Assembly: GCA_964629655.1 (NCBI GenBank)
Contig: CAZVQU010000001.1
Location: 356,056 to 420,055, forward strand
Source of the DNA: an uncultured Planctomycetia bacterium
GTDB lineage: Bacteria > Omnitrophota > Gorgyraeia > Duberdicusellales > 4484-171
Direction of reading: 5' to 3'
Length of the DNA stretch: 64,000 nucleotides
Part shown: one piece after another, positions 427-61,848 of the stretch
Position numbering within the stretch: position 1 is the first letter of the stretch
Layout: each line of letters opens with the position of its first letter
Notes under the pieces: generated by a model
The model's database searches: none
Told to the model about the DNA's origin: nothing
The model's input: the letters and a program-made list of their open reading frames with translations, nothing else
Program-made: the position numbers and the translations under genes

Positions 427-2325
427 TTAAACATTAATCTTTAAATTTTCTATAATCTCAAGAAGATCGGGAGTTAAAAAATTATGTTCTACGGGAATAA
501 TGTATTCCTCAGGCTTAGAAGATAAGAATTTATCTATATGCCCTAAAGCCTCCTGGGTAGCCCTAAAAGGAACTAACGTCTTTCCGTAAGCTTCACGCGC
601 GCCGTCCCAAACGTCGATTGAATCATGATAAAGAGAAAGCAACGGTAATCCCATAAGCCTTGCTTCATAGGTAGGAGTTGAGGGAAAATCCGTAATAACT
701 CTATCGGCCTGCCTTAAATACGTCATGAGATTACCATCCTTATAGAAAATATTCGGCGCTTTTAAATCCTTTAAAAAATTTAAAAGGGATTTAGCAATCC
801 ACCTTTCCGTTGGCAGAACTTTAATAATAAAATCATACTGGGGTAATTCGGCAAAATACCTGCATAAATTACACTGAAGATGAAAATACCAGCTCAAAGG
901 ATAGGTGCATCGGAGCCTTTGAACACCTTGCGCGACAGGAAGGTAACACACCTTCTCTCTATGTTTGTTTAAACTCCTGCTAGCGGCGGATTTTAAAAAC
1001 CTACGTGCTGTCTTTTTTGCTTCACCGCTATATTTGCCTATCCAAACTCTCGAGGCGATTACTTCGATCTTGCCCTGGTTATTCTCATTAAAACACTTAT
1101 CATAAAAGACAGCCTCCTCGATTGAGGGAGTAGCATAGACATCGGTCGGCTGTTCGGAGAAATACTGCATGTGGTATTCAGCTTCACCGCCACCATGCTC
1201 AACATGTATAGAAAATACTTGAGGTAACAATTTGGCTATAGTCATAACTCCATATTCAGAAAGAAATATCTTATACGCAGTGGCAACATAGTTTATCTTC
1301 TCTTTCTGAAGAATCTTCTCATACTTTTTCGCGGTTATACTTATAATCGGACATATTTTCTGTAAGAAATACAAAAAACGAGGGTTTAATATCCGGCTCA
1401 GATCAATACCGGATTCACGGCTTATCCATTCGCAAGGATGAAATTCCCGAATACAACTTTCTCCTATTTCCTCCCATAAGGCCGATGTTTTTATATCAAC
1501 ACAAAAATCTTCTACTTTCTCTTCTTTTCTCTTGCGAAAAAAAAGATTTTTTTTAGGACCATGTATTGTATGATATAAAATTTGATGGCCTGCTTTTGTG
1601 GCGTTTTTATACAGATTGCCCAGCCAATCTTCTCTTAAAATAAGGATTTTTTTAAGTTTGCCTTCCTTCGCGAGCTGTTTTCTTTTGAGATAAAATAATA
1701 GATATATTATTTGAATATGTGCTCTTTTTATAACTCTGCCTATAGCTTTAAAGGCTCTGCTGGGGAAACGTCTTAATTTAAGATGAATAAAATTAACTTT
1801 AGAATTTTCTGGATTAACCATAATAACAGAATACGGTATACCCTTCTCCTCGCAAATAATGGGCAATAAATAAGAAGTTAAGTCGCTTTTGTCCGTAAAA
1901 AGCGTTGAATCAAATCCAACTCGTGGATGAGATGCTGTCACTAAACATACCTTTGAGGGTTTTTCTTTATCTAATACTGACAAAATATTTCTGCTGAATA
2001 TTATAAATGAATCAATCATGGTTATGATAGAATAGCCGTATAATTTTACGAAATTAATTTTTTTATCAAGAGGGTCTGTTAATTTAGTTCTTAAATAATT
2101 ATCAAAAGCATTAAACCAAGGGAGCTTTCGTTGATCACATTCTCTAGCATACTTTTCTCTTTCAAACATATCATAGAAATCTTCGTAAATTTGGTAATCT
2201 ATCACTTCTTTATCCAGCTTGCGGCAGACAGCGGGATTCAAAGCGATAATCTTACCCTTTAAACTATGTACTAAAGAATTAAACTCCTCTACAAAATATA
2301 TGCTTTCGGCATTACTATTTATCAT
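427..2325 (-). CDS. Large polysaccharide-biosynthesis enzyme of unknown family; candidate glycosyl- or phosphotransferase
   Basis: 632-aa ORF at the distal end of the glycan locus. C-terminal half has a His/Asp-rich segment (HVEHGGGEAEYH...DVYATPS...VLPTERW) reminiscent of TagF/KpsC-type capsule transferases. No firm motif match. Confidence 0.4.
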   Translation of the reverse strand: MINSNAESIYFVEEFNSLVHSLKGKIIALNPAVCRKLDKEVIDYQIYEDFYDMFEREKYARECDQRKLPWFNAFDNYLRTKLTDPLDKKINFVKLYGYSIITMIDSFIIFSRNILSVLDKEKPSKVCLVTASHPRVGFDSTLFTDKSDLTSYLLPIICEEKGIPYSVIMVNPENSKVNFIHLKLRRFPSRAFKAIGRVIKRAHIQIIYLLFYLKRKQLAKEGKLKKILILREDWLGNLYKNATKAGHQILYHTIHGPKKNLFFRKRKEEKVEDFCVDIKTSALWEEIGESCIREFHPCEWISRESGIDLSRILNPRFLYFLQKICPIISITAKKYEKILQKEKINYVATAYKIFLSEYGVMTIAKLLPQVFSIHVEHGGGEAEYHMQYFSEQPTDVYATPSIEEAVFYDKCFNENNQGKIEVIASRVWIGKYSGEAKKTARRFLKSAASRSLNKHREKVCYLPVAQGVQRLRCTYPLSWYFHLQCNLCRYFAELPQYDFIIKVLPTERWIAKSLLNFLKDLKAPNIFYKDGNLMTYLRQADRVITDFPSTPTYEARLMGLPLLSLYHDSIDVWDGAREAYGKTLVPFRATQEALGHIDKFLSSKPEEYIIPVEHNFLTPDLLEIIENLKINV

Positions 2326-2337
2326 ATCTTCTCCTAA

Positions 2338-3534
2338 TTAGACTCTTACTTGCTCTTTTTGAAAATTTGTCCTAGAAATAACTTCCTCTAGATTAATATT
2401 ACCGGCTGGCTTCTCCTGTTCCCAAATAGGATTTTTTAGTTTCCATTGATTGTTTGCGTCTTTCTTCCACATATCTCCGCGAAAAGAATTAGCAACTTTC
2501 CAAAATTCATCTAGGCTAATACCGATATAATCACAAAAAGCTTTAATGTATCTATCGGCGCATTTGCCATCATACTCTTTTACCAAGGCCATAGCTTCCG
2601 GACGAGTAATCAGCCCAGCATGGATATCATAACAGGCATGGTCAGTGCATTGGCCAAAACCAAATTTTACGTATTTAAGCATCTGGTTTATCTGGACCAG
2701 TTCAGAATCCATCTGAGCATAGCGCACGTAGGTGCCGATATCATGCAGATCTAAATCCTCAGGTTTCATCTTTAATCCGCGCGCGATAGAAAACTTAGCA
2801 TTATTAGAATATAGCCACTCCTTAACATAATATTGAAGCCAGACTCCTCTTGTCCCTTTGGCTCTCAAACTATTATCATTGTAACCAAACAAATAAAGAT
2901 CTCTATGGTCAAACCCGTCTTCTATATACTCGGCAATTCCGCTGGCCAACGTGTTGAGTTTATTAGCTTTTAACGCATCATCATCAGTTCCTACTCCGGT
3001 ATTACTGGCACCCATAGTAAGGCCTGGATTCTCACCCTGAATAATTAAAGGAATATCAAATTTATCAGCTATGATATAGGTCGAAGACCATAAAGAATAT
3101 TCAGTAATCTTAACCGGGTTAAGATTACTGTAAAAATCACGTTTTATAAGCCTGTGCATCACTTTAGGGTTAGGCCGGATAGCAATTACATCAAACCCTA
3201 GCTGTTTTAAATTCTCTATGTTGTGCCGGCCGACTTCGGTAAGTCCTTCCGGCTCGCTGTTTACCAAAACAGGGCGCAAACCTAATTCGTCCCGGGCATA
3301 AAGCGCCTGGAACGTTGAGTCTTTTCCTCCGCTAACACCAATGGCGCAATTATAATTGCCCTTTGCTTTTGCCTTTGCCTTATCAGCTATATCTTGCAAT
3401 TGCCTTCTGCGACCGGACCAATCAATTTCATTCTTCAGCCGGTCTTGATATAAACAAGCTCCGCAGACGCCCTGATTATTAAAATACACTCCCGGCCTTG
3501 TGTCCGGCTGAACACATCGCTTACAATATCGCAT
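2338..3534 (-). CDS. N-acetyl sugar amidotransferase (PP-loop ATP pyrophosphatase, WbuX/PseA family)
   Basis: N-terminal Cys-rich knuckle (CKRCVQPDTRPGVYFNNQGVCGAC) followed by PP-loop motif GVSGGKDST. Architecture matches LPS acetamidino-forming amidotransferases. Confidence 0.7.
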   Translation of the reverse strand: MRYCKRCVQPDTRPGVYFNNQGVCGACLYQDRLKNEIDWSGRRRQLQDIADKAKAKAKGNYNCAIGVSGGKDSTFQALYARDELGLRPVLVNSEPEGLTEVGRHNIENLKQLGFDVIAIRPNPKVMHRLIKRDFYSNLNPVKITEYSLWSSTYIIADKFDIPLIIQGENPGLTMGASNTGVGTDDDALKANKLNTLASGIAEYIEDGFDHRDLYLFGYNDNSLRAKGTRGVWLQYYVKEWLYSNNAKFSIARGLKMKPEDLDLHDIGTYVRYAQMDSELVQINQMLKYVKFGFGQCTDHACYDIHAGLITRPEAMALVKEYDGKCADRYIKAFCDYIGISLDEFWKVANSFRGDMWKKDANNQWKLKNPIWEQEKPAGNINLEEVISRTNFQKEQVRV

Positions 3535-3552
3535 AATTAACCCTATAATCTA

Positions 3553-4935
3553 TTATGAAATTACTAATTTTTTTTCACCTAAATTGCGATTAACAATTCG
3601 CGGAGTTAAAGTTAAATATTCTTTTTCAATTAAATATTTAACAATCCCTAAAATCCGATAATCGCTGTATTTAACCCCTGTTACTTGTAAACCAAACGGC
3701 ATACTGTCCGGCCCTCTAAATACTGGCACATTCAGTGCGGGAGCTCCTAACAATGACCAGATTAAACCAGTATCGTCTACTTCTTTGTAGTTATTTCTCA
3801 AGGGAGCGATATTCGCCGTCGCCGGCGTAAGGATTAAATCATAGCTATCATAGTTATAATCAAACTCTTTTTGCATCCTTTCCTGCTCCTTAAGGGAATT
3901 ATGAAACTCTTGCACTGTAATTTTTCTACCATGCTCAACCATGCTATAGAGAGTTGAGCTAATTACATTTTTATCCGCACTTTCTCGTTTAAAATAATAA
4001 GCTAAACTCTTATCGTATAAAGTCGAATGTATTCTATGGCTGCCATCAAAGAAACCATCATCTTTTATATCTAGCACCTTGATCTCTTCTTTAGTCCTTA
4101 AAAAATCAACTAAACCTTCAAATTGATTTTTGACATAATCCTGATATCCCTGCCAAAGATATTCAGGTCTTAAAATCCCAATTTTTATGCTATTGTAGCC
4201 TACAATGGAACGTTTCTTTAGCATCGTATTGCTTATAGGGTAATTTTCACCGCGTACTCTTAAGATATCAAAAAGTAAAATTATATCGTCAATATTATTG
4301 GCAAAAAACCCAACATGATCTAACGTATTGGTAGTTTTTAAAACTCCCGTTCGGGGCATAGTTCCGTAAGAAGGTTTGCATCCAAAAATACCGGTATAAC
4401 TAGCCGGCCTTACGATGGAAGATCCTGTCTGTGTACCTAACGAGGCTATGGACAACCCCGCCGCGACCGCAACTGCTGAACCCATTGAGGATGTTCCCGG
4501 AGAGTAATCGTTATTGTGCGGGTTTAGGGTTATGCCCGGATGATGTACGGCTAACTCTGCGGTAACTGTCTTACCCGTAACTACTCCATCCTCCCAAATG
4601 GCTTTCTCCACAACTCTTGCATTATTCCCTGCTACATATCCTTTCCAGTAAGGACTTCCTTTCTCAGTCGTAAGTTCAACAGTATTAAAAACATCTTTAA
4701 CGCCAATGGGGACGCCATACAACTCTCCATGCGTTTTCCCTTCTTTAATTCTCTTAATAATCTGCTGCACCCTGTCAAAAACAACACTCTCATCAAACAC
4801 CTGAAAAGCCATTAACTCACTATCCATGGCTTTAATAAAAGATGTTAACTTTTTATAAAACTCCTCAAGATCAATCTCTCTTGTTTTAATTAGTTTTATA
4901 AACTGTTTAATGTTAATTTGGGTTAAATTAATCAC
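3553..4935 (-). CDS. Amidase-signature (GatA-like) amidase
   Basis: AS-family signature GVPIGVKDVF...GTSSMGSAVAVAAGL...GTQTGSSIVRPAS, with the Ser-cisSer-Lys triad context. 460 aa. Confidence 0.7.
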   Translation of the reverse strand: MINLTQINIKQFIKLIKTREIDLEEFYKKLTSFIKAMDSELMAFQVFDESVVFDRVQQIIKRIKEGKTHGELYGVPIGVKDVFNTVELTTEKGSPYWKGYVAGNNARVVEKAIWEDGVVTGKTVTAELAVHHPGITLNPHNNDYSPGTSSMGSAVAVAAGLSIASLGTQTGSSIVRPASYTGIFGCKPSYGTMPRTGVLKTTNTLDHVGFFANNIDDIILLFDILRVRGENYPISNTMLKKRSIVGYNSIKIGILRPEYLWQGYQDYVKNQFEGLVDFLRTKEEIKVLDIKDDGFFDGSHRIHSTLYDKSLAYYFKRESADKNVISSTLYSMVEHGRKITVQEFHNSLKEQERMQKEFDYNYDSYDLILTPATANIAPLRNNYKEVDDTGLIWSLLGAPALNVPVFRGPDSMPFGLQVTGVKYSDYRILGIVKYLIEKEYLTLTPRIVNRNLGEKKLVIS

Positions 4936-6118
4936 TCTTTCTCCCTTTTAAGCAATCCTTGTACTTAGGTAATTTTTTGGCGTTCCCTTCCCGATGAGCC
5001 TCAAGAATTTCGTGGAATTCTTCTTCGCTAAATCCGGTCATCTTAAGATATTTATCTAATTGGTCAGGCCTTTCTCCATCAAGTTTATATATTAGCTCCA
5101 TCGCTTCTTTTCTTGTTAATAACCCTTGCCGGATATCTTCGCTAGCATGGTCAGTGGTTCTACCATACCCTCTTTTAATAAACTTAGCATAATCATGAAC
5201 TCCTACCATTTTACATTCAACGCTTTTATATCTTTTGTATGTACCTTCCATATAATTCTGCCGCCAGTTATATTCTTTTATGAGAAACTCTACCTGCCTC
5301 ATCTCATCCCAATAATAATAATCACCAAGATGTATACCCTTCACGCCAACCTCCTCTATCTCTTTATCAGAAGGCAATTCATAAGCTGCCATATCTTTCT
5401 TAGTCAACCGGCTTCTTTCATTTATCATCTCGCCAGGATACTTCTTCGCGGAAATTTTTGTATAATAATGCTTATCATACGGAATAATATCATCATAAGT
5501 GGCTCGGCCATCCATTTCTGCAACCGACTCACCATAAATCATTAAGGGTATCTTTAGCTTAACCGCGAGCTGCAAGGGAAAAGCTCCGACACCAGCATGG
5601 CAATGCCAACACGCGTCACCTATTTGATATAGTGATTCTTTTGCAATTTTGTTTATTGCTTCTCTATTGGGAGTAAACATCATATGGTCTATGTTCAATC
5701 GCTCCAAAATATTCCAAAGATTGTATTTGCCCGTCTCACTATACCAATTATGGTTAAACGTTACAGCCAGAATATGCATGTTATATATTTTTTTTAACAT
5801 ATGAAGCTGAAAGCAGCTGTCTTTCCCCCCGCTGATAGGCACCATTATGTCGTAGGTTCCTCTTTTCCTTCCTTCCTCCTTCGCTTCTTCCAATATCTGC
5901 CGCAATTGCTCTTCTCTTTGGGCCCAATTAATATGCATTTTAGTCTCTGACGAACGGCACGCTGTACACATTCCCATTTCATCAAAGCCTACACCTTCTT
6001 GCGTATCAGGTAAACAACAACGCACGCAATACCTTATTCCTTTAAATGGCCCTCCACCATAATATTTTGTTTTTTCTTTACCGGTTTCTTTAGAAACTGT
6101 CATCTTTTGCCTCCTCAA
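4928..6118 (-). CDS. N-acetyl sugar amidotransferase paralog (PP-loop)
   Basis: Same architecture as 2338-3534: Cys knuckle (CVRCCLPDT...GMCTAC) plus PP-loop ISGGKDSCFQ. Divergent paralog. Confidence 0.7.
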   Translation of the reverse strand: MRRQKMTVSKETGKEKTKYYGGGPFKGIRYCVRCCLPDTQEGVGFDEMGMCTACRSSETKMHINWAQREEQLRQILEEAKEEGRKRGTYDIMVPISGGKDSCFQLHMLKKIYNMHILAVTFNHNWYSETGKYNLWNILERLNIDHMMFTPNREAINKIAKESLYQIGDACWHCHAGVGAFPLQLAVKLKIPLMIYGESVAEMDGRATYDDIIPYDKHYYTKISAKKYPGEMINERSRLTKKDMAAYELPSDKEIEEVGVKGIHLGDYYYWDEMRQVEFLIKEYNWRQNYMEGTYKRYKSVECKMVGVHDYAKFIKRGYGRTTDHASEDIRQGLLTRKEAMELIYKLDGERPDQLDKYLKMTGFSEEEFHEILEAHREGNAKKLPKYKDCLKGRKSD

Positions 6119-6128
6119 ACATTTATCC

Positions 6129-6671
6129 TTAACTCTTAAATTCCTTTGAAAGAAGCCCCATCATAATGATATTTTTCCATTTGCCGTCTCTTAATAGGCC
6201 TTCCCGCGCTATACCTTCTTGTTTAAATCCTAATTTTTTATAAAGGAAGCGCGCTTTAGCATTACTTTCATTTACGCTAAGATAAACTCGGTGTAAATTT
6301 AGCGTTTTAAAAGTATGCCGCAGGATCAGCTTTGTTGCTTCTGTTCCGTAACCTTTACCGTGGTGCAGGCGATCAATAATTATTTTGAATCCAGCTCTTC
6401 TATGCGTGTAATCAATGCGGGCGATTTCTAAATTGCCGATATGCCTATTGCTCTTTTTTTCGATTATCGCAAGCCAGATACAAGAAGAATCTCTCCACTT
6501 ACTCTGAGCAAATCGCTCCAGTTCATCTAAACTGTGAGGAAATTGGGCATGCTCAGTAAATTCATCATTTGCCACGTCATTAATCCATCTGAAATAATCT
6601 CCCCCTAAATCTTGTCTTTCAACGGGACGCAGGTAAATCTTTTTGCCTTCCAAAAATTTAACTTTTCGCAT
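6129..6671 (-). CDS. GNAT-family N-acetyltransferase
   Basis: GNAT core motifs (HRRAGFKI...HGKGYGTEA...LHRVYLSVNESNAKARFLYKKLGF). 180 aa. Confidence 0.65.
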   Translation of the reverse strand: MRKVKFLEGKKIYLRPVERQDLGGDYFRWINDVANDEFTEHAQFPHSLDELERFAQSKWRDSSCIWLAIIEKKSNRHIGNLEIARIDYTHRRAGFKIIIDRLHHGKGYGTEATKLILRHTFKTLNLHRVYLSVNESNAKARFLYKKLGFKQEGIAREGLLRDGKWKNIIMMGLLSKEFKS

Positions 6672-6704: not shown

Positions 6705-7916
6705 TTAAACATACCTCTGTCCTCTATCTCCGGGAAAAAAATAGATTTTTATACGTACAAGCATAGAATGTATAATTATACTTACAAATTTTATCGGCGC
6801 CGGTAAATATTTCCAGATAGTTTTTGCTATTTTACCATTTAAATTGCGGGAAACTTTTTTGAATTCCTCTAAGTTAGGGTAAGCTTTGAGCCATCTTTTA
6901 AATAATCCCCGATGCGGCAAGATAAATATAAAAAAGCCGCAGATTCGGTAAAAAAGATTATCGCCTGTCAGCCGGACATATCCGAATTCCTTCATTGATT
7001 TTCTAGTAATAAACTCGATCATGACAATTTCTTTAAAAGCTAATTCTTTCATCCAGCGTTTACGTACATTTTCTATTTGAAAAAATACTTCCTCAGGCTG
7101 AGGATATTTATTCTCAGCAGTCACATAAGCACTTTCGCCTTCCCAGTGCCTACCGGAAAAGGTGCATTTAAGAAGCGTCGGAGAAAAATCAATGCCTAAC
7201 CAGTCCGATAGGTTCCGCATTTGGTCCTCTAAGGATTCGTGCAGATCTTCGTTTCGGACTACCTTACATTTAGAATCCGGTTTGGAACTATATTTCTTCC
7301 AATTTTCAAATCCCTGCATCCAGTCTTCAATGTCAAAATTAAAATAATAGTCAGAAAGATAACCAAAGATCTTAGTCATCTGCCGCCAAGAGCCAGCCAT
7401 GCTTGCTCGAGGATCTCTTATTATCTGAAGAACGCCCGCCTTGGGAAAATCGGCTAAAGCTTCTGAAAGCTGGTAAGGCAGGTGTTCATGTACTACTAAA
7501 GCTCGGATATGAGAAATATCAATATTCATCGCAACAGAATATGCTTGGTGCAAAGCATAAAACACATTTATCCGGTTAATTCCCGAAAATTCTAAAGTCT
7601 TCTTAAAGCTAGAGTAAAATCTTTCCATTTCTTCTCGGCTATAAAACAATTTCTTTCTCGGTATCAGCAGTTTAAAGCGTTCCTCTATATAAATCCGCCA
7701 TATTGACAACATCTCTTGCGTATTCTTAACTTTATTGCAACCAGACATATTCCAATACCTATAAAAACTGAGCGTAGGCATAATCAATATCTGCTTATGA
7801 GAATCAAGCAAACTATGTAAATAATCTATCCCGCAATGACCAAAATTAGAAAGAAAATATATCGGTAAATTTCTTAGTTTTGACTCCATTGTCATATTAC
7901 TAGTTTTTAACTGCAT
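6705..7916 (-). CDS. Putative PAPS-dependent sulfotransferase
   Basis: RDPR 3'-phosphate-binding motif (QIIRDPRASMAG). C-terminal VVRNEDLHESLEDQMRNLSDWLGIDF matches the sulfotransferase V.YEDL....lgi pattern. P-loop-like N-terminal segment. Start overlaps the adjacent APS kinase. Confidence 0.55.
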   Translation of the reverse strand: MQLKTSNMTMESKLRNLPIYFLSNFGHCGIDYLHSLLDSHKQILIMPTLSFYRYWNMSGCNKVKNTQEMLSIWRIYIEERFKLLIPRKKLFYSREEMERFYSSFKKTLEFSGINRINVFYALHQAYSVAMNIDISHIRALVVHEHLPYQLSEALADFPKAGVLQIIRDPRASMAGSWRQMTKIFGYLSDYYFNFDIEDWMQGFENWKKYSSKPDSKCKVVRNEDLHESLEDQMRNLSDWLGIDFSPTLLKCTFSGRHWEGESAYVTAENKYPQPEEVFFQIENVRKRWMKELAFKEIVMIEFITRKSMKEFGYVRLTGDNLFYRICGFFIFILPHRGLFKRWLKAYPNLEEFKKVSRNLNGKIAKTIWKYLPAPIKFVSIIIHSMLVRIKIYFFPGDRGQRYV

Positions 7917-8490
7917 CTATCTCCTTCTCTCTGTCAAATACTGCATCTTTGGTCTTCTTGTGGATAAAGTTTAAAGAGGTTTCCAGCAAAGTCTGAAAAC
8001 ACTCATCAACGGTAATAGCGGAAGTATCTAATGCTAGCTCAACATGCTCAGATTCTTCATAAGCCTCAGTTACGCCAACAAAATTATCAAGCTCACCTGT
8101 AAATGCTCTCTTATACTGCCCCTTATAATCCCTTTTAGCGCAAATATCAACAGGGCATTTTAGATAAACCTCCATAAAGTTGCCAATATAATTACGAATT
8201 TTCTGACGAATATCTTTTTTGTGCGAAATGCTGGTGACAATAGCTATGTTTCCCGCTTTATTACTCTTTAAAGCCAATTTAGCCTTATAAAGATTCAAAG
8301 CGTCTCTATCCCTATTAATGTATCCGTAAACTTCTTTTAGCTTATGACGCACGTCTTCTCCGTCAAGAAACTCTACATTCTTAACACCTTCATTTATAAG
8401 GCCATTATAAAGGCTCTGGCCTAAAGTTGTTTTACCGGAAGCTGATAAACCGGTAATCCAAATAGTTACCGGTTTAAAAATAAAATTCAT
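7900..8490 (-). CDS. cysC: Adenylyl-sulfate (APS) kinase
   Basis: Walker A ITGLSASGKTTLG and APS-kinase length and fold signature. 196 aa. Confidence 0.8.
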   Translation of the reverse strand: MNFIFKPVTIWITGLSASGKTTLGQSLYNGLINEGVKNVEFLDGEDVRHKLKEVYGYINRDRDALNLYKAKLALKSNKAGNIAIVTSISHKKDIRQKIRNYIGNFMEVYLKCPVDICAKRDYKGQYKRAFTGELDNFVGVTEAYEESEHVELALDTSAITVDECFQTLLETSLNFIHKKTKDAVFDREKEIDAVKN

Positions 8491-9791
8491 TGGTCTAACT
8501 CCTTTAATTCTTTTAAATTGATAAATATTTTTTCAAACGCCATTACAACATCATCGATATCCTCCTTAGTGTGAGGATGTCTGCAAACCGGTATTAATAA
8601 TAGTTCTTTTTCGTACATTCTTTCAGCAACGGGACAAATACCTTTAGAATAGTTAACCTTTCCCTGATAGAAACTGCAGTTAAACGGACATCCTTGAACG
8701 CCATAGGCTATATTCTTCTGATAAAGAGGCTCAAGATATATAGGCCTCACGTAACCTAATCCGCAAGAAATTCCTTCCGCTTGTAATGCTTTCACAAAGC
8801 TGTTGCGCGATACACCAATTATTTCATCTTTAAACTTTATAGGATAGACAAAATATACATGAGTAAACTCTGCATCTTGTTTGGGTAAAATTAGCCCTTC
8901 AAAAATTGATAATTCCTTAGTCAAATATTCAGCTAATTCAATCCGATGGTTGTTTAAAGCATCGAGTCGCTTAAATTGTTCGATACTTACCGCGGCTTCC
9001 AGTTCAGTCATGCGATAATTGAACCCAACCATATTGCTAATATCATCCACCTTCATATCTTCAGTTATAACTTCTCCATGATTTCTTATAAGCTGCATTC
9101 TTAATGCTAACTCTTGACTATTAGTTATTGCTACGCCACCTTCGCCGGAAGTAATAGTTTTATGTTGATTAAAGCTAAATATACCTATATCCCCTAAGGT
9201 TCCTACAGGCTTACCTTTATATATTGCTCCCGGGGCTTGAGCGCAATCCTCAATTACTTTAAGCTTGTGTTTACGGGCAATTGCTATTATCTCATCCATC
9301 TTGGCTGGACAGCCGAATAAATGCACTATTATTATGGCCTTGGTTTGCGCTGTTATGCGTTCCTCAATTTTCTTAGGATCAATACAAAGCGAACCTTCTT
9401 CAATATCAACAAAAACAGGAATCGCGTTATTCATAATAATTGCTGTGGCCGAAGAACACATAGTATACGGGGTCACAATTACTTCATCGCCAGGGCCAAT
9501 TCCACATGCCCCAACCGCAACATGAAGCGCGGCAGTCGCGGAATTTAAAGCAACTGCGCATTTTACATCAAAATACTCTTTAATCATCGACTCAAGTTCT
9601 CTCAGCTGTTTTCCTCCCAGAAAATATTCTCCTGCCCTAGCAATAAAACCTGAAAGCATTCCCCCATCTAAAACCTCATTGACTCTTTTTTTCTCCTCTT
9701 GGCCAATTATAGCGTAATTGACAAAAGGCTTATTCCTTACCTTCTCTCCTCCTAAGATAGCAAGCTTACTCATTTTTTTCTTTCCTTCCAT
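8487..9791 (-). CDS. DegT/DnrJ/EryC1/StrS-family PLP-dependent sugar aminotransferase
   Basis: Family motifs (FNQHKTITSGEGG, catalytic Lys context). 434 aa. 4-nt overlap with cysC. Confidence 0.8.
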   Translation of the reverse strand: MEGKKKMSKLAILGGEKVRNKPFVNYAIIGQEEKKRVNEVLDGGMLSGFIARAGEYFLGGKQLRELESMIKEYFDVKCAVALNSATAALHVAVGACGIGPGDEVIVTPYTMCSSATAIIMNNAIPVFVDIEEGSLCIDPKKIEERITAQTKAIIIVHLFGCPAKMDEIIAIARKHKLKVIEDCAQAPGAIYKGKPVGTLGDIGIFSFNQHKTITSGEGGVAITNSQELALRMQLIRNHGEVITEDMKVDDISNMVGFNYRMTELEAAVSIEQFKRLDALNNHRIELAEYLTKELSIFEGLILPKQDAEFTHVYFVYPIKFKDEIIGVSRNSFVKALQAEGISCGLGYVRPIYLEPLYQKNIAYGVQGCPFNCSFYQGKVNYSKGICPVAERMYEKELLLIPVCRHPHTKEDIDDVVMAFEKIFINLKELKELDQ

Positions 9792-10750
9792 ATTCCTAAT
9801 TTTTCAAATATTTTCAAAGTCTCAATGGCTTTTTCTTTGTCCTTGACCTCTTTGTCCTTGCTTCGGGATAGCAAACAACTTAATTCATTTTCCATATAGT
9901 TTCTTTTAAAGTCTAAGGGAAGTTTTCGCGGCTTTAAAACTTTGACTTTTGGAAATCTAGAATCCCCGGCTTCATAATAATTGTAATCATATTCATTAAA
10001 GGGAAGACTTTTAATATCTATCCTTCCTTTGCTGCCTAAAATATCTATCTCAAAAATAGCATATCCGCCGGAGAGAAAGCTGCTTTGCTTATTCAACTCA
10101 AAACAATACGCGTTAAAGTTTTCAAAACTTAAAGAAAAGTCACCGTGAAAATCACCATTTGCGCCGGGTTCAATTTTAATCGGTTTAACCTTTTTAGGGG
10201 TGCCAAAATAAAAGAGAAAAAGATTCACTAAATGTGAACCGGCGTTAATGACTCCTCCGGAAAAATATGCCGTACATTTTTGGACATCTCCTACCAGTTC
10301 AGACAAGTGCTCTTTCACATAAAGGTAAAAACCGTCAAACCTTCGCTGATAATTAGTAATAAAGTGAATCTTATGTTGAGAAAAAAGTTCTAATTGCTTA
10401 TTAGCATTTCCCAGATTATCGCTAAAAGGTTTCTCTACCCAAGCCAACTTAACAGAGTTATAACTGGAAATTTTTCTTATAATATCTAAATTATACTTTA
10501 CGCCGGCGCATAGGCTCACGATATCCGGATGAAAATTCTCCATGGCCTCATCAACGGTATCAAAAGCATCCTTCACAGACCAAAAATCAACTGCTTGCTT
10601 TAATGCTTGTTTATTGGTATCACATATCGCAATACTTTTAATTTTTTTACTCTTTTTATACGCCCCAAGATGTGTATTAACCCACTCCTTTTCCTTAACC
10701 TGATCGAAGCTGCTACCGACTCTTCCTGCTCCAATAATAAGTGCTTTCAT
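9770..10750 (-). CDS. Gfo/Idh/MocA-family NAD(P)-dependent oxidoreductase
   Basis: N-terminal Rossmann MKALIIGAGRVGSS. Length and layout typical of sugar oxidoreductases. Confidence 0.55.
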   Translation of the reverse strand: MKALIIGAGRVGSSFDQVKEKEWVNTHLGAYKKSKKIKSIAICDTNKQALKQAVDFWSVKDAFDTVDEAMENFHPDIVSLCAGVKYNLDIIRKISSYNSVKLAWVEKPFSDNLGNANKQLELFSQHKIHFITNYQRRFDGFYLYVKEHLSELVGDVQKCTAYFSGGVINAGSHLVNLFLFYFGTPKKVKPIKIEPGANGDFHGDFSLSFENFNAYCFELNKQSSFLSGGYAIFEIDILGSKGRIDIKSLPFNEYDYNYYEAGDSRFPKVKVLKPRKLPLDFKRNYMENELSCLLSRSKDKEVKDKEKAIETLKIFEKLGIWKERKK

Positions 10751-10763
10751 GCTACAACTCCCC

Positions 10764-11522
10764 TTAATACCTAATTGGTTTCTGGGTTATGTTTTGATTA
10801 ATCACTGGGATATCTGGATTTTCCTTTATCAATTGCATAATATCCCAACTGCAGAAATTATTTCTTTTAGGGTAAAGTGAATCAAAAATTTTTTTTATCA
10901 ATTCAAAATCTTGCTCCGTATCAAGCGTCCATCTATGCTCGGGAAAATTGAGCCATGAGGGAGCTTTCACTGAACCCAACTTGTACCTACCCTCCTCCTC
11001 GTAAAAATATAATGAAACATGCTCACGCACAGCCGGATCACTAATATTCTCCGCTGTCCATTTTAAATCGCTGAATCTAAAAACCTTACAGTCAAGGCCA
11101 CGGGGAAAAGTCATAGGTATGCAATTAGAAACAAAATCATATTCATCTGATAAGAATTTTTCTATTGTCCTATCCACCCAATAAACATCAATTAAGGGGC
11201 AATCTCCAGTAAGCTCAACAATAATGTCAGAACCAGCTTTTTGGTGGCATCTAACAACTCTATCCAGAATATCATCTTCACTGCCTTGAAAACAACCCAC
11301 CCCTTCTTTTGATGCCAATTCACAGATCGCCTTATCTTTAATGCTTGTCGTTGTAGCAATAATAATCTCCCGAATAAAAGATGATTTCTTCAATCGCCGG
11401 ACCATATGGGCCAAAACAGGTATGTCACATACAGATAACAGTACCTTTCCCGGCAAACGGGAAGAAGACATCCTAGCTTCAATTGAAGCAACAATTTTTT
11501 CTTTCATTATATAACACTCCAT
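10764..11522 (-). CDS. CMP-nonulosonic acid synthetase-like cytidylyltransferase (NeuA/PseF/SpsF family)
   Basis: ARMSSSRLPGKVL...IIIATT cytidylyltransferase motifs. 252 aa. Sits next to a NeuB-like synthase. Confidence 0.65.
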   Translation of the reverse strand: MECYIMKEKIVASIEARMSSSRLPGKVLLSVCDIPVLAHMVRRLKKSSFIREIIIATTTSIKDKAICELASKEGVGCFQGSEDDILDRVVRCHQKAGSDIIVELTGDCPLIDVYWVDRTIEKFLSDEYDFVSNCIPMTFPRGLDCKVFRFSDLKWTAENISDPAVREHVSLYFYEEEGRYKLGSVKAPSWLNFPEHRWTLDTEQDFELIKKIFDSLYPKRNNFCSWDIMQLIKENPDIPVINQNITQKPIRY

Positions 11523-12313
11523 CCACCATCAACCATAAGATTATGTCCGGTGACATAAGAAGACGCATTAGAAAGTAGAAATAATAATGGCCCAGTTAAC
11601 TCTTCTTTTTGTGACATCCTTTTCATCGGTGAACGCGCGCTAAAGTTATCATTAAACTGTTTTTGATGATTATTGTATACGCCATGAGGGGTAATTGCGT
11701 TAACTCGAATATTATGCTTAGACCAATACACAGCAAGCTGTTTGGTAAGCATCACCACTCCACCTTTACTCGTCGAATAGGCTACCGGGCATCCTAGATT
11801 AGTTCCGGCATATATCTCGGGGTCAGGGCTTACGACACCATAAGTTGAAGCGAAATTTACGATATTTCCTTTCCTTCTTTTTATCATTTCTTTTCCAAAT
11901 ATTTGTGAACAAAGATAAACCCCTTTGACATTAACCCTCATTATATTATCCCAATCTCGATCTGAATATTTTTCAAAAGATTCAAAAAAATTAGCGGTTT
12001 TATTCTGCGCAGCGTTCACTAAAGCGTCTATTCTTTTATACTTTTTTATAATTTCCTTTTTTGCTCTATAAACTTCCTCCCTGTTTGATATATCAATACC
12101 CAGGCCTAAAGAGTCGCTTCCGAATTTTTTTTTGAGTGTCCGGGAAAATTCTTCACACTTTTTATGATTCACATCAATGATAACAAGCTTTGCCCCCAGC
12201 TCGGCAAGAGCTTCACATAGGGCCTTACCAATCAAACCCGTAGCCCCAGTATAAACAATGACCATATTACGAATATCAAAAAGGTTTTCGTATTTTCTTT
12301 TAAGTTTTTTCAT
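11507..12313 (-). CDS. Short-chain dehydrogenase/reductase (SDR)
   Basis: TGATGLIGKA Rossmann motif and classical SDR YxxxK context. 268 aa. Confidence 0.65.
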   Translation of the reverse strand: MKKLKRKYENLFDIRNMVIVYTGATGLIGKALCEALAELGAKLVIIDVNHKKCEEFSRTLKKKFGSDSLGLGIDISNREEVYRAKKEIIKKYKRIDALVNAAQNKTANFFESFEKYSDRDWDNIMRVNVKGVYLCSQIFGKEMIKRRKGNIVNFASTYGVVSPDPEIYAGTNLGCPVAYSTSKGGVVMLTKQLAVYWSKHNIRVNAITPHGVYNNHQKQFNDNFSARSPMKRMSQKEELTGPLLFLLSNASSYVTGHNLMVDGGWSVI

Positions 12314-12327
12314 ATATATCCCTCCGA

Positions 12328-13284
12328 TTAACTGTTACCTTTAGCATCAAGCGCCATCCTCAATGTCTTAATACCGTCATCAATCGGACATATTGTTTTC
12401 TTTCCTTTTCTTACACACTCAATGAAATGCAGCAACTCACAACAATATGTTTTTTCCATAACATTTTTTCCCACATTTAACAACACCGACCACTTCTTAT
12501 CTCTTTTATTATAAAATTTGAGTCCTCCTCTATAAAAATCGTAAAAAAGGGTACCTTTTTCTCCTACTATCTCAATGTATCTCTTGGAAGGCTCCTGAAC
12601 ATAGCTTAAATTGACCTCAGCCAATATTCCGCTTAGAAATTCGATATGAATAAGGGCCATATCTTCTGCACTAATGCCAAGATATTTTCCTTTGCTTATT
12701 GTAGAATTAATCTTCTTATATTTACCAAATAACCATAAAAGCGTATCCAGTTCATGGCTTGATGTTAAAACAACACCTCCTCCTAAGTCGCTACGTGAAG
12801 CATAGCTTTTTCTGTAATCTTCCCAAGGATGCCATGCCGGCAGATAAGAGGTAAATTGAAACCTGGCAAAATAAATATCTCCTAAAAAACCGGTAAGAAT
12901 AAGGTTCTTTATTCTACATATTACGGGATGAAAACGAAGATTATAAGCGATAAAGGCCGTTAGTTTTCTTTTTTTGATAACTGCCTGCAATTTCTTAATA
13001 TTTGTTAAGGAACAAGAAAGAGGTTTTTCTATAAAAACATGGCATCCCCGGCGGGCCGCTTCCAGCGCTGTGGGAATATGCAAACTCGTCGGATTACATA
13101 TTAATGCAGCATCAGGCTGTTCCCGGTAGGCCTTCACTGGATTTTGAAAGCACCTCACGGGAATATTGAAAGGTTTGGCCCCCTTTCTCGTACGGAGCGC
13201 GATTATATCTTTATATCCTAAATTGAGAAGATTCCTGGCATGCCTCTGTCCGATTGAACCCAAACCTATAATTAAAAATTTCAT
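12328..13284 (-). CDS. Gfo/Idh/MocA-family oxidoreductase
   Basis: MKFLIIGLGSIGQRH Rossmann motif and C-terminal Gfo/Idh/MocA alpha/beta domain. 318 aa. Confidence 0.55.
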   Translation of the reverse strand: MKFLIIGLGSIGQRHARNLLNLGYKDIIALRTRKGAKPFNIPVRCFQNPVKAYREQPDAALICNPTSLHIPTALEAARRGCHVFIEKPLSCSLTNIKKLQAVIKKRKLTAFIAYNLRFHPVICRIKNLILTGFLGDIYFARFQFTSYLPAWHPWEDYRKSYASRSDLGGGVVLTSSHELDTLLWLFGKYKKINSTISKGKYLGISAEDMALIHIEFLSGILAEVNLSYVQEPSKRYIEIVGEKGTLFYDFYRGGLKFYNKRDKKWSVLLNVGKNVMEKTYCCELLHFIECVRKGKKTICPIDDGIKTLRMALDAKGNS

Positions 13285-13994
13285 TATGCTCTGCTTGTTA
13301 ATAGCACGGTTTCCATTTTTCTCGCATAATAAGACAATTCTCTTAAATCTTTTGGATCCATGCTCCCAGCATGATCCGGGCCATGCATTTTTTTATCTAG
13401 TGTAAAATGCTTCTCTATAATACGCGCTCCGTTGCCTACGGCAACAAGCGCCGCTTCTACTCCAACCGTATGATCGCTAAAACCGGAATATTTTTTAAAA
13501 TCTACACGTCCAAAATCCAAATCTTGAGGCAATGTAGGATATTTAGAAACACAATAAAGAAAATCAACCTTCCCTCTTGTCTGAATATTAGGAAAACTTT
13601 CTTCTCGGTACATTCCCAATGACACAATGATATCCTTTCCAGTTTTCGCTATAGCGTCTACTAAACCCTTTTCATAGATACTGCGGCTTGCAATTTTATA
13701 TCTCTTTACGCCTACATCTTCGGCCCATTTGATTCTACCAGTATCAAAGACTGATACGAAAAACTCAATCCCAGCTTCATCACAGATCTGTTTGAGTAAT
13801 TTCAACTGCGCTCTGTTAATCTGAGACCATTTAGCCTCTTTGTACCACTGAAAATCTTTTGGAAAGATTGAGTCCACATCATAAAGCTGAAACTTTGCGA
13901 TATCGGCTCCATTCTCTTTTGCCGCATGGATAAGCTCCTTGGCTGTGTTCATATCCCCGTTATGGTTTTGTCCGATTTCTGCAATTATCAGCAT
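13284..13994 (-). CDS. Nonulosonic acid synthase (NeuB/PseI/LegI/SpsE family) lacking the C-terminal SAF domain
   Basis: MLIIAEIGQNHNGDMNTAKELIHAAKENGADIAKFQ is the canonical NeuB N-terminus. Only 236 aa, so the TIM barrel is present but no SAF/antifreeze-like domain. Confidence 0.7.
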   Translation of the reverse strand: MLIIAEIGQNHNGDMNTAKELIHAAKENGADIAKFQLYDVDSIFPKDFQWYKEAKWSQINRAQLKLLKQICDEAGIEFFVSVFDTGRIKWAEDVGVKRYKIASRSIYEKGLVDAIAKTGKDIIVSLGMYREESFPNIQTRGKVDFLYCVSKYPTLPQDLDFGRVDFKKYSGFSDHTVGVEAALVAVGNGARIIEKHFTLDKKMHGPDHAGSMDPKDLRELSYYARKMETVLLTSRA

Positions 13995-30668: not shown

Positions 30669-30670
30669 AT

Positions 30671-35601: not shown

Positions 35602-35602
35602 T

Positions 35603-38539: not shown

Positions 38540-38642
38540 TGAACATATTTTACCCCTTACCTTATATATGTCAATATGTTTTATAAACTGTTGGGGTAAA
38601 GACTCAAGGCCTCTAAGTCTTTGTGCAAGAAGAAGTAAGATA

Positions 38643-40532: not shown

Positions 40533-40571
40533 AGCATAACCCTCCTTGTTAAAATTAATTTTGCTTGCTCT

Positions 40572-61842: not shown

Positions 61843-61848
61843 CTGAAC

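What the first reader, a model, noticed from the sequence alone, without database searches (positions are those of the whole stretch)
6705..8490. Sulfotransferase-APS kinase pair inside the glycan locus, implying a sulfated surface polysaccharide
A 403-aa protein with RDPR and V.NEDL....LGI sulfotransferase motifs overlaps an APS kinase gene. Together with the PAPS-synthesis genes 30 kb further on (38643-41300), this argues that PAPS is made in situ to sulfate the glycan built by this locus. Sulfated LPS, capsule or EPS is rare and functionally interesting in bacteria, with roles in host mimicry, phage resistance and marine polysaccharides.
Basis: partly seen in the sequence, partly recalled or inferred. 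Interest (0 to 1): 0.65.

Follow-up and report, generated by a model that had tools for sequence, protein, structure and literature searches.

The report
Sulfotransferase-fold enzyme with its own kinase
A sulfotransferase-like gene and an overlapping APS-kinase-like gene really do sit inside a large sialic-acid-type surface-sugar locus of an uncultured Omnitrophota-like bacterium. They most likely add sulfate to that sugar, but relatives of this gene pair usually travel with phosphonate genes, so the transferred group is not yet certain.

Summary
ORF 6705-7916(-) passes both Pfam sulfotransferase models. Its AlphaFold model (pLDDT 92) matches only PAPS-dependent sulfotransferases in the PDB. 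ORF 7900-8490(-), overlapping it by 17 nt, is an APS-kinase-family protein. A bifunctional ATP-sulfurylase/APS-kinase and a second APS kinase lie at 38643-41300 in the same lptD-adjacent glycan locus, and the window holds no cysH, cysDN or cysIJ.

New points:
- The pair is a conserved module: adjacent, within a few kb, or fused into one protein in relatives from several phyla.
- The sulfotransferase family sits next to NeuB/CMP-transferase genes in 19 of 21 loci, so the acceptor is probably a nonulosonic acid or its glycan.
- The family replaces the canonical 5'-phosphosulfate loop (P-K/R-S-G-T-T) with an invariant G-H-x-G-x-D.
- The kinase subfamily lacks a polar residue kept in four reference APS kinases. 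In 8 of 12 lineages it is linked to PEP-mutase or phosphonate-importer genes, and in 10 of 12 to a nucleotidyltransferase. Only in this window is ATP sulfurylase in reach.

Best reading: PAPS-dependent sulfation of a nonulosonic-acid glycan (about 0.55). Main rival: a PAPS-like donor carrying another group, as in Campylobacter Cj1415 (about 0.2).

The parts
6705..7916 (-). 403-aa sulfotransferase-fold protein. It has a variant 5'-PSB loop (G26-H27-C28-G29-I30-D31), a 3'-phosphate motif (R167-D-P-R170-A-S172), an invariant E144-H145, and a C-terminal extension of about 100 aa made of amphipathic or hydrophobic helices.
   Evidence: Pfam Sulfotransfer_3 and Sulfotransfer_1 above cutoff. No NCBIfam hit. 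AF2 model pLDDT 92.2, pTM 0.90. The top 50 Foldseek PDB hits are all PAPS-dependent sulfotransferases. Family invariants. Hydropathy maximum 1.52 at residues 377-395.
7900..8490 (-). 196-aa APS-kinase-family P-loop kinase of a distinct subfamily linked to sulfotransferase-fold genes (LDGE, ISH and RDYKG in place of LDGD, ISP and RDPKG).
   Evidence: PF01583, 127 bits. TIGR00455, 141 bits against a 138.7 cutoff. Solved APS kinases 7yq0 and 8a8h at E 1e-29 and 4e-27. Subfamily column analysis. Fused to the sulfotransferase domain in P0008, P0009, P0011 and P0012.
38643..40532 (-). 629-aa bifunctional ATP sulfurylase (Sat) plus canonical APS kinase domain. It is the probable APS/PAPS source.
   Evidence: NCBIfam NF004040 at E 1e-121. 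The apsK domain scores 265 bits. The sopT domain scores 258 bits, below its 323 cutoff. Motifs are [10 protein letters not shown], and GRKHAD in place of GRDHAG.
40572..41300 (-). 242-aa second APS kinase with a hydrophobic N-terminal extension of about 65 aa (probably membrane-anchored).
   Evidence: TIGR00455, 196 bits. Alignment. Hydropathy 1.96 at residues 37-55.
37991..38680 (-). UpxY/RfaH-like antiterminator. It marks the start of the roughly 38-kb operon that holds the pair.
   Evidence: NF033644 at 95.9 bits and RfaH at 69 bits, with the match starting at residue 70. Sequence.
8487..13994 (-). Nonulosonic-acid-type sugar module just upstream of the pair: DegT aminotransferase, MocA oxidoreductase, KdsB/NeuA-like cytidylyltransferase, PtmA-like SDR, a second MocA, and a short NeuB (236 aa).
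   Evidence: Pfam and NCBIfam. The same genes accompany the sulfotransferase family elsewhere.
427..6671 (-). Downstream tailoring genes: a GNAT, two WbuX N-acetyl-sugar amidotransferases flanking an amidase-signature protein, and a 632-aa protein with weak similarity to LIC12162-family putative transferases.
   Evidence: The order is syntenic in L010.

Best explanation
The pair is a dedicated sulfation module of a nonulosonic-acid (sialic-acid-like) branch within a large LPS/O-antigen-type glycan locus.

The proposed steps are:
1. ATP sulfurylase (38643-40532) makes APS.
2. An APS kinase 3'-phosphorylates APS to PAPS. This could be the adjacent, translationally coupled 196-aa enzyme, the two canonical domains upstream, or both.
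3. The 403-aa sulfotransferase-fold enzyme transfers the sulfuryl group to a hydroxyl of the nonulosonic acid, its CMP-activated form, or the glycan that carries it.
4. In this transfer, R167/S172 would hold the 3'-phosphate, H27 would take the place of the usual Lys/Arg at the 5'-phosphosulfate, and H145 (or E144) would act as catalytic base.

Shown: gene identities, the fold, the conserved motifs, the conserved or fused pairing, and the sugar context. Inferred: the donor, the acceptor, the residue roles, and that the product reaches the cell surface.
For: - Fold and family: Pfam hits above cutoff. A confident model whose 50 best PDB matches are all PAPS-dependent sulfotransferases, including TPST2 at E 1.5e-7 and the CurM and OLS sulfotransferase domains at TM 0.62-0.64. 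The family profile matches TPST1 at E 1e-7 across the 3'-phosphate-binding region.
- Kinase: it keeps the P-loop, the DG(E/D) motif, both substrate-binding arginines (R48, R62), K123 and the two aromatic residues, and it matches solved APS kinases at E 1e-29.
- Coupling: there is a 17-nt overlap with its own Shine-Dalgarno sequence. The pair is adjacent in L003, L013, L020 and L050, and fused in P0008/9/11/12.
- Sulfate supply: Sat/CysC and a second CysC lie in the same locus, between the sugar-nucleotide genes and the antiterminator, with no assimilatory genes. This protein is the only sulfotransferase-like protein found in the 47-kb locus.
- Independent links between the family and real ATP sulfurylase: PK-PUA_2-ATP-sulfurylase fusions in L048 and the P0042 locus, and CysC-like genes next to L028, L037 and L047.
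- The kinase subfamily also pairs with a sulfotransferase that has a fully canonical PRSGKT loop (L050) and with an Arg-type paralogue (L011, L049).
- Acceptor: NeuB and/or a CMP-transferase lie near the family in 19 of 21 loci with enough flank.
Against: - The 5'-PSB loop is G-H-C-G-I-D rather than P-K/R-S-G-T-T, with H27, D31 and S35 invariant and H34 over 90% conserved.
- There is no NCBIfam model for the protein.
- The kinase only just passes the apsK cutoff.
- Its subfamily has V/L/F/I in 103 of 111 members where four reference APS kinases have Asn or His, and it lacks the Arg two positions further on.
- It would be the third APS kinase domain in the window.
- Of 12 lineages carrying this kinase subfamily, 8 have PEP mutase or a Phosphonate-bd ABC importer beside it, 10 have a PntC- or TagD-type nucleotidyltransferase, and only this window has ATP sulfurylase in reach.
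- The Sat domain is itself divergent: it scores below the equivalog cutoffs and has GRKHAD in place of GRDHAG.
- No biochemical data exist.
Confidence: 0.55

Rival explanations
1. PAPS-like donor carrying another group. The kinase is not an APS kinase. It 3'-phosphorylates a different nucleotide-activated group, such as a CMP-phosphonate. The precedent is Campylobacter Cj1415, an APS-kinase homologue that 3'-phosphorylates CDP-amidate. The sulfotransferase-fold enzyme then recognises the 3'-phosphate and transfers that group, not sulfate, to the nonulosonic-acid glycan.
For: - The kinase subfamily is linked to phosphonate genes and a nucleotidyltransferase in several arrangements:
  - Ppm-NTP_transf_3, Ppd, B12-rSAM, kinase, ST in L003, L013 and L007.
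  - ST, Ppm-NTP, Ppd, Fe-ADH, kinase in L012.
  - kinase, ST, CyTase-Ppm, MT, CyTase in L020.
  - Ppm, Ppd, Fe-ADH, NTP-transferase, kinase, ST in L050.
  - kinase, NTP_transf_3, Ppm in L051.
  - A Phosphonate-bd ABC importer with a cytidylyltransferase and a methyltransferase between or beside the kinase and ST in L010 and L049.
- Of 5 kinases sampled without regard to context, 5 had a nucleotidyltransferase nearby, 3 had Ppm, and none had ATP sulfurylase within 8 kb.
- A polar position in the substrate pocket is hydrophobic across the subfamily.
- The 5'-PSB loop of the transferase is altered, with invariant His, Asp and Glu residues that could bind a metal.
- PMC8942020 notes uncharacterised Campylobacter ppm-ppd clusters flanked by rSAM and 'adenylsulfate kinase' genes.
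- PMC11800397 states that Cj1415-Cj1418 make CDP-phosphoramidate 3'-phosphate.
- This reading removes the redundancy of a third APS kinase in the window.
Against: - The window has no PEP mutase, Ppd, PhnD-type importer or PntC-like gene beside the pair, and no Cj1416-1418 homologues.
- It does have Sat/CysC, with no other sulfotransferase to consume the PAPS.
- Members of the same His-type family, with identical invariant residues, sit beside genuine ATP sulfurylase and lack Ppm (L048, P0042).
- A sulfotransferase with a canonical PRSGKT loop also pairs with this kinase (L050).
- To my knowledge every characterised enzyme of this fold uses PAPS.
- No Cj1415, Cj1421 or Cj1422 sequence was available for comparison.
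Confidence: 0.2
2. Transient, activating sulfation. PAPS is the donor, but the sulfate ester is not the final decoration. It turns a hydroxyl into a leaving group for elimination or substitution during precursor synthesis, as in the CurM and OLS sulfotransferase domains. The hydroxyl could be on the nonulosonic-acid precursor or, in relatives, on 2-hydroxyethylphosphonate.
For: - The CurM and OLS sulfotransferase domains give the best TM-scores of all PDB matches, 0.62-0.64.
- The pair sits among precursor-modifying enzymes (aminotransferase, oxidoreductases, GNAT, amidotransferases), not among glycosyltransferases.
- In relatives, an Fe-ADH or aldo-keto reductase that would make a hydroxy-phosphonate lies beside the kinase (L009, L011, L012, L050).
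Against: No partner enzyme for elimination or displacement was identified. The E-values favour TPST over CurM. Nothing in the sequence distinguishes a transient sulfate from a stable one.
Confidence: 0.1
3. Housekeeping assimilatory sulfate activation that merely happens to lie near glycan genes, with the 403-aa protein unrelated to it.
For: Sat/CysC genes are also used in assimilation in some bacteria (general knowledge).
Against: - The window has no cysH, cysDN, cysIJ or sir.
- The kinase overlaps the sulfotransferase gene and is fused to it in relatives.
- The pair recurs in glycan loci across phyla.
Confidence: 0.03

Closest known systems
NodH with NodPQ (rhizobial Nod-factor sulfation), LpsS, and mycobacterial Stf0 with CysC: bacterial carbohydrate sulfotransferases with dedicated PAPS supply (from general knowledge)
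   Same: A PAPS-type sulfotransferase fold is paired with locus-encoded sulfate activation, outside assimilation, and acts on a glycoconjugate.
   Different: There is no detectable close sequence relationship and no NCBIfam hit. His replaces the Arg of the NodH-like PRTGT loop. There is a C-terminal extension of about 100 aa. The kinase is a separate subfamily that can be fused to the transferase. The context is nonulosonic-acid genes.
Tyrosylprotein sulfotransferases TPST1/2 (PDB 3ap3, 5wri) and the CurM/OLS sulfotransferase domains (4gbm, 4gox)
   Same: These are the best structural and profile matches. The 3'-phosphate motif RD(G/P)RAS is shared.
   Different: Identity is 14-19% and TM only 0.5-0.64. 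The acceptors are unrelated (peptide tyrosine, ACP-bound acyl chain). Their canonical PRSGTT loop is not kept.
Vertebrate sialate:O-sulfotransferases Wscd1/Wscd2 (PMC9304399)
   Same: If the acceptor is a nonulosonic acid, the reaction would be analogous: O-sulfation of a sialic-acid-type sugar.
   Different: No homology was tested or shown. They are eukaryotic Golgi enzymes. No bacterial sulfated nonulosonic acid was found in the held literature.
Campylobacter jejuni MeOPN pathway: Cj1416 (cytidylyltransferase) and Cj1415 (APS-kinase homologue, CDP-amidate 3'-kinase) (PMC11800397)
   Same: An APS-kinase-family enzyme sits in a glycan locus, works with a nucleotidyltransferase, and makes a PAPS-like 3'-phosphorylated donor. 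Relatives of the window's kinase show the same gene logic.
   Different: The window has no Cj1416-1418 homologues. No sequence comparison with Cj1415, Cj1421 or Cj1422 was possible. The linked genes in relatives are for phosphonates, not phosphoramidate.
Sulfated O-polysaccharide of Poseidonocella sedimentorum (Kokoulin et al. 2018, cited in PMC9912281)
   Same: It shows that sulfated O-polysaccharides exist in marine bacteria.
   Different: Only the citation was seen. The structure and genes were not examined. My recollection that the sulfated sugar is Kdo is from memory and unverified.

Membership tests
PAPS-dependent sulfotransferase superfamily (Pfam Sulfotransfer_1 / Sulfotransfer_3) | Sulfotransferase alpha/beta fold | tested here: met
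   AF2 model pLDDT 92.2. All 50 top Foldseek PDB hits are PAPS sulfotransferases, best E 1.5e-7. Both Pfam models are above cutoff.
PAPS-dependent sulfotransferase superfamily (Pfam Sulfotransfer_1 / Sulfotransfer_3) | 5'-phosphosulfate-binding loop P-K/R-S/T-G-T/S-T after strand 1 | tested here: not met
   The position and length of the loop are kept, but the sequence is F-G-H-C-G-I-D. H27, G29 and D31 are invariant in 37 sequences. Paralogues in L011 and L049 have G/A-R-T/S-G-S-D.
PAPS-dependent sulfotransferase superfamily (Pfam Sulfotransfer_1 / Sulfotransfer_3) | 3'-phosphate-binding motif (Arg ... Ser) | tested here: met
   R167-D-P-R170 is invariant and is followed by A171 (over 90% conserved) and S172. 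It aligns to RDGRAS of TPST1 at profile E 1e-7.
PAPS-dependent sulfotransferase superfamily (Pfam Sulfotransfer_1 / Sulfotransfer_3) | Catalytic base (His or Glu) at the end of the central strand | tested here: inconclusive
   Invariant E144-H145 follow strand 139-143. The spatial position could not be checked because model coordinates are not exported.
PAPS-dependent sulfotransferase superfamily (Pfam Sulfotransfer_1 / Sulfotransfer_3) | Transfers sulfate from PAPS | not testable with these tools
   Needs an enzyme assay.
Adenylyl-sulfate (APS) kinase, CysC (PF01583 / TIGR00455) | Family score above the curated cutoff | tested here: met
   PF01583 at 127 bits against 21.1. TIGR00455 at 141 against 138.7, which is marginal. 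The two other domains in the window score 196 and 265.
Adenylyl-sulfate (APS) kinase, CysC (PF01583 / TIGR00455) | P-loop, DGD-type motif, two substrate arginines, Lys of RDPKG, aromatic base-stacking pair | tested here: met
   GLSASGKTT, LDGE (E in 97 of 111 members), R48, R62 and K123 invariant, Y/F/H57 and F137.
Adenylyl-sulfate (APS) kinase, CysC (PF01583 / TIGR00455) | Polar Asn/His three residues after the second Arg, and the following Arg (the ENIRR / MHNR region) | tested here: not met
   The window kinase has Leu at this column. The subfamily has V75, L15, F7 and I6 of 111. Arg is present in only 11 of 111 two columns on. All four reference kinases have H/N and R. The assignment of this Asn as a sulfate contact is from memory of PAPSS1 and Penicillium structures.
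Adenylyl-sulfate (APS) kinase, CysC (PF01583 / TIGR00455) | Phosphorylates APS to PAPS | not testable with these tools
   Needs an enzyme assay.
MeOPN-type pathway (Cj1415-Cj1418) | Glutamine kinase, phosphoglutamine cytidylyltransferase and gamma-glutamyl-CDP-amidate hydrolase beside the kinase | tested here: not met
   No PEP-utilising kinase or class-I GATase lies in the glycan locus. The only GATase belongs to the trp operon at 58130-58708.
Phosphonate tailoring (Ppm/Ppd/PntC) cluster | PEP mutase in the locus | tested here: not met
   None among the annotated ORFs at or above the 120-aa listing threshold across the glycan locus (427-47118). PEP mutase is present beside the orthologous kinase in L003, L007, L012, L013, L020, L050 and L051.
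Assimilatory sulfate reduction operon | cysH, cysDN, cysIJ or sir adjacent | tested here: not met
   Absent from the annotated ORFs, which cover the glycan locus and housekeeping genes up to 59971. Four ORFs at 59982-63840 were not scanned.

The most novel reading that the evidence does not exclude
The pair belongs to an undescribed family of 'PAPS-mimic' pathways. An APS-kinase-family enzyme 3'-phosphorylates a nucleotide-activated phosphonate (or another non-sulfate group). That group is made by a PntC- or TagD-type nucleotidyltransferase. A sulfotransferase-fold enzyme with a remodelled 5' loop (G-H-x-G-x-D) then transfers the group onto a nonulosonic-acid glycan. This would be the first non-sulfuryl transfer by this fold, and a generalisation of the Campylobacter Cj1415 logic.
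Probability: 0.2. Interest if true: 0.85.

Novelty: new variant of a known kind. Interest (0 to 1): 0.5.

Why it matters
If the plain reading holds, this is a recognisable genetic marker for sulfated sialic-acid-like sugars in bacteria. I found no report of such a modification in the held literature. The marker comprises about 100 clusters at 50% identity with E up to 1e-30. It would appear in uncultured Omnitrophota, Planctomycetota, SAR11-like and other marine lineages, where surface charge affects phage, grazer and host interactions. It would also help explain why reference-based searches under-detect sulfotransferases in communities whose polymers are chemically sulfated (PMC10483923).

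If the rival holds, the fold that has so far been synonymous with sulfate transfer has been recruited for another group. The unexplained 'adenylsulfate kinase' genes in ppm-ppd clusters (PMC8942020) would then gain a role. Either way, both genes are likely to be named too confidently by automatic annotation.

Tried and rejected
- NCBIfam gave no family for the 403-aa protein.
- A single-sequence PDB search was only marginal, E 0.15. The family profile was needed.
- tblastn against plasmids found nothing.
- The promoter and terminator scan was at chance level and uninformative.
- The genome-contig scan returned only 4 loci and not the source genome. The organism was inferred only from a MurA cluster at 90% identity or more that contains Candidatus Omnitrophota proteins.
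- The Cj1415 paper (PMC5938747) is not held. No Cj1415 or Cj1421/22 sequences were available, so a direct comparison with the MeOPN system could not be made.
- PMC8942020 has no held supplements.
- No paper links a MeOPN transferase to the sulfotransferase fold.
- I considered and rejected an MeOPN-type pathway in the window (its genes are absent) and an assimilatory context (its genes are absent).
- I considered predicting the fused kinase-sulfotransferase protein to look for substrate channelling. I dropped it because coordinates and PAE are not returned.
- A transmembrane anchor in the sulfotransferase C-terminus is not supported. The hydropathy maximum is 1.52, below the usual 1.6.
Full report
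**1. Observation**

ORF 6705-7916(-) encodes 403 aa, and ORF 7900-8490(-) encodes 196 aa. They overlap by 17 nt. An AAGGAG ribosome-binding site lies 4 nt before the ATG at 7916, which supports that start codon and translational coupling.

Pfam places the 403-aa protein in Sulfotransfer_3 (41.4 bits) and Sulfotransfer_1 (31.2 bits). Both are above their cutoffs, but the matches cover only the C-terminal two thirds of the profiles. Pfam places the 196-aa protein in APS_kinase at 127 bits. NCBIfam has no model for the 403-aa protein. It scores the kinase at 141 bits against a TIGR00455 cutoff of 138.7.

**2. Layout of the window**

Every gene is on the minus strand.
- Positions 49-64 kb are housekeeping: the trp operon, MurA, an M16 peptidase, riboflavin synthase, a ROK kinase and transaldolase.
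- LptD lies at 47133-49307.
- A glycan locus of at least 47 kb follows, running to the left edge of the window. In order, it holds:
  - two UDP-sugar dehydrogenases, epimerases and a PseC-like aminotransferase
  - an APS kinase with a hydrophobic N-terminal extension (40572-41300)
  - a bifunctional ATP sulfurylase/APS kinase (38643-40532)
  - a UpxY/RfaH-like antiterminator (37991-38680)
  - heptose-type genes, a split transketolase, radical-SAM enzymes, methyltransferases, glycosyltransferases and an ABC exporter
  - a nonulosonic-acid module: short NeuB, MocA, PtmA-like SDR, KdsB/NeuA-like cytidylyltransferase, MocA and DegT
  - the kinase and the sulfotransferase
  - a GNAT, a WbuX amidotransferase, an amidase, a second WbuX, and a 632-aa protein weakly similar to LIC12162-family transferases

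None of the annotated ORFs is cysH, cysDN or cysIJ (four ORFs at 59982-63840 were not scanned), and no second sulfotransferase-like protein was found in the locus. A MurA cluster at 90% identity or more points to Candidatus Omnitrophota.

**3. The transferase**

- 60 homologues were found. Four of them (P0008, P0009, P0011, P0012) are single proteins with an N-terminal APS-kinase domain fused to the sulfotransferase domain.
- An AlphaFold model built on 37 sequences is confident, with pLDDT 92.2 and pTM 0.90.
- The 50 best Foldseek matches in the PDB are all PAPS-dependent sulfotransferases. They include TPST2 at E 1.5e-7 and the CurM and OLS sulfotransferase domains at TM 0.62-0.64, followed by Stf9, Stf1, cytosolic SULTs and heparan sulfate 3-OST.
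- The family profile matches TPST1 at E 1e-7 over the 3'-phosphate-binding region, where RDPRAS aligns with RDGRAS.
- The 5'-phosphosulfate loop is not canonical. Where TPST has V-P-R-S-G-T-T, this family has F-G-H-C-G-I-D. G26 is over 90% conserved, and H27, G29, D31 and S35 are invariant. H34 is over 90% conserved, and E144-H145 are also invariant.
- Paralogues in L011, L029 and L049 keep Arg but share the Asp (G/A-R-T/S-G-S-D-F-F). The His form therefore looks like a variant within a wider clade.
- A C-terminal region of about 100 residues forms amphipathic or hydrophobic helices. Its hydropathy stays below the usual transmembrane threshold.
- A profile search of 1.84 billion representative proteins gives 103 clusters at E up to 1e-30 and 1502 at E up to 1e-10.

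**4. The kinase**

- It matches solved APS kinases: 7yq0 at E 1.4e-29 and the Methanothermococcus enzyme 8a8h at E 4e-27.
- It keeps the P-loop, D43-G44-E45, R48, R62, K123 and both aromatic residues.
- It belongs to a distinct subfamily. 111 members were aligned, at about 50% identity to one another and 34-36% to the two canonical domains in the window.
- The subfamily has systematic changes: ISH for ISP, RDYKG for RDPKG, and a hydrophobic residue (V, L, F or I in 103 of 111) three positions after R62.
- At that position all four reference kinases have Asn or His. The Arg two positions further on is also lost.
- From memory of PAPSS1 and Penicillium structures, this Asn contacts the sulfate of APS. 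That role was not verified here.

**5. Comparative context of the transferase family**

- Loci came from genome contigs, metagenome contigs and exact-protein look-ups.
- They were scored by BLASTP against reference proteins or read from precomputed Pfam hits.
- In 19 of 21 loci with usable flanks, the family lies near NeuB and/or a CMP-type cytidylyltransferase. MocA, SDR, TylF, DegT, WbuX and LIC12162/PFTS-type proteins often accompany them.
- The taxa named for these loci are Phycisphaerae, Planctomycetaceae, a marine gammaproteobacterium and Pelagibacteraceae.
- Locus L010, whose sulfotransferase is 72% identical, is syntenic with the window.
- The acceptor is therefore most likely a nonulosonic acid or the glycan carrying it.
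- I found no report of a bacterial sulfated nonulosonic acid, or of a sulfotransferase in such clusters, in the held literature.
- Vertebrate sialate O-sulfotransferases are known.

**6. Comparative context of the kinase subfamily**

This is where the simple story becomes less secure. Twelve lineages carry this subfamily. Eleven have a sulfotransferase-fold gene adjacent, fused or within a few kb.

| Locus | Genes beside the kinase |
|---|---|
| L003, L013, L007 | PEP mutase fused to NTP_transf_3, Ppd, B12-rSAM |
| L012 | ST, Ppm-NTP, Ppd, Fe-ADH, kinase |
| L020 | kinase, ST, cytidylyltransferase-Ppm fusion, methyltransferase, cytidylyltransferase |
| L050 | Ppm, Ppd, Fe-ADH, NTP-transferase, kinase, ST, then CMP-transferase, MocA, SDR, NeuB |
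| L051 | kinase, sulfatase-family protein, NTP_transf_3, Ppm |
| L010, L049 | cytidylyl/nucleotidyltransferase, Phosphonate-bd ABC importer, methyltransferase |
| L011 | NTP-transferase, MFS transporter, DUF2490 |
| L017 | asparagine synthase, cytidylyltransferase |

All five had a nucleotidyltransferase nearby, three had Ppm, and none had ATP sulfurylase within 8 kb. Only the window and L009 lack such neighbours.

A published inventory notes uncharacterised Campylobacter ppm-ppd clusters flanked by radical-SAM and 'adenylsulfate kinase' genes (PMC8942020). In C. jejuni the APS-kinase homologue Cj1415 makes CDP-phosphoramidate 3'-phosphate (PMC11800397).

**7. Weighing the readings for this window**

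For sulfate:
- The locus encodes ATP sulfurylase and two canonical APS kinase domains.
- The 403-aa protein is the only sulfotransferase-fold protein found in the locus that could use the PAPS.
- No phosphonate source is visible.
- Family members with the same invariant residues sit beside genuine ATP sulfurylase in L048 and the P0042 locus. These are PK-PUA_2-ATP-sulfurylase fusions with a GRDHTG motif. Others sit beside CysC-like genes in L028, L037 and L047.
- The kinase subfamily also partners a sulfotransferase with a fully canonical PRSGKT loop in L050.

Against sulfate:
- The third kinase is redundant.
- The 5' loop and the kinase pocket are both altered.
- The phosphonate and nucleotidyltransferase linkage in relatives is very strong.
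- The Sat domain in the window is itself divergent. It has GRKHAD for GRDHAG and scores below the equivalog cutoffs.

I assign the following probabilities:
- About 0.55 to stable PAPS-dependent sulfation of a nonulosonic-acid glycan.
- About 0.2 to a PAPS-like donor carrying another group.
- About 0.1 to transient, activating sulfation of the CurM type.
- About 0.03 to an assimilatory role.
- The remainder is unassigned.

**8. Verdict**

The finding is real. The system is a new variant of a known kind: a carbohydrate sulfotransferase with dedicated sulfate activation. Four features set it apart:
- a remodelled donor loop
- a dedicated and sometimes fused kinase subfamily
- a consistent nonulosonic-acid context
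- an unexplained association with phosphonate genes in relatives

I score interest at 0.5.

Noticed in passing
window 40572-41300 (-): The second APS kinase carries an N-terminal hydrophobic extension of about 65 aa (hydropathy 1.96, probably two membrane helices). A membrane-anchored APS kinase is unusual.
   Followed up: partly
window 38643-40532 (-): The ATP sulfurylase domain is divergent. It has [10 protein letters not shown], and GRKHAD in place of the usual GRDHAG, and scores below the NCBIfam equivalog cutoffs. Its fused APS kinase domain is fully canonical.
   Followed up: partly
window 37991-38680 (-): A UpxY/RfaH-like antiterminator. The called TTG start overlaps the upstream gene, and the family match begins at residue 70, so the true start is probably near 38539. 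A small MarR-type HTH gene lies at 36589-36936 in the same operon.
   Followed up: partly
window 2338-6118 (-): Two WbuX-type N-acetyl-sugar amidotransferases flank an amidase-signature (GatA-like) protein. The amidase may supply ammonia in place of the usual HisH/HisF-like WbuY/WbuZ partners. The same trio occurs in L010.
   Followed up: no
window 13284-13994 (-): The NeuB homologue is short (236 aa) and lacks the C-terminal SAF domain. Equally short NeuB genes accompany the sulfotransferase family in L003, L006, L007 and L008.
   Followed up: no
window 34069-35712 (-): An HldE-like bifunctional protein has its domains in reversed order: cytidylyltransferase-like at the N-terminus and PfkB kinase at the C-terminus.
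   Followed up: no
window 427-2325 (-): A 632-aa protein with no Pfam or NCBIfam hit. It has weak BLAST similarity to LIC12162-family proteins that follow the sulfotransferase in L007 and L008, and a 60%-identical orthologue in L010. It is a candidate nonulosonic-acid transferase.
   Followed up: partly
L048 7550-9739; also the P0042 locus: A pyruvate-kinase barrel, a PUA_2 domain and an ATP sulfurylase are fused in one protein of about 729 aa, in marine loci carrying the sulfotransferase family. I do not know of this architecture being described.
   Followed up: partly
L010 4128-11200; L049 6781-13396: A cassette lies between or beside the kinase and the sulfotransferase. It holds a methyltransferase, a small cytidylyl/nucleotidyltransferase and a Phosphonate-bd ABC importer, plus DUF2490 in L010. 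Its position suggests import and nucleotide activation of a small anion feeding this pair.
   Followed up: partly
L007 18160-18879; the P0033 and P0042 loci: Several related loci carry a second, shorter sulfotransferase-like gene (239-330 aa). In the P0033 and P0042 loci it lies next to a methyltransferase.
   Followed up: no
window 28925-32459 (-): A split transketolase (N-terminal and pyrimidine/C-terminal subunits) sits next to a radical-SAM enzyme and a methyltransferase. This suggests two-carbon branching or chain extension of a sugar in the same operon.
   Followed up: no
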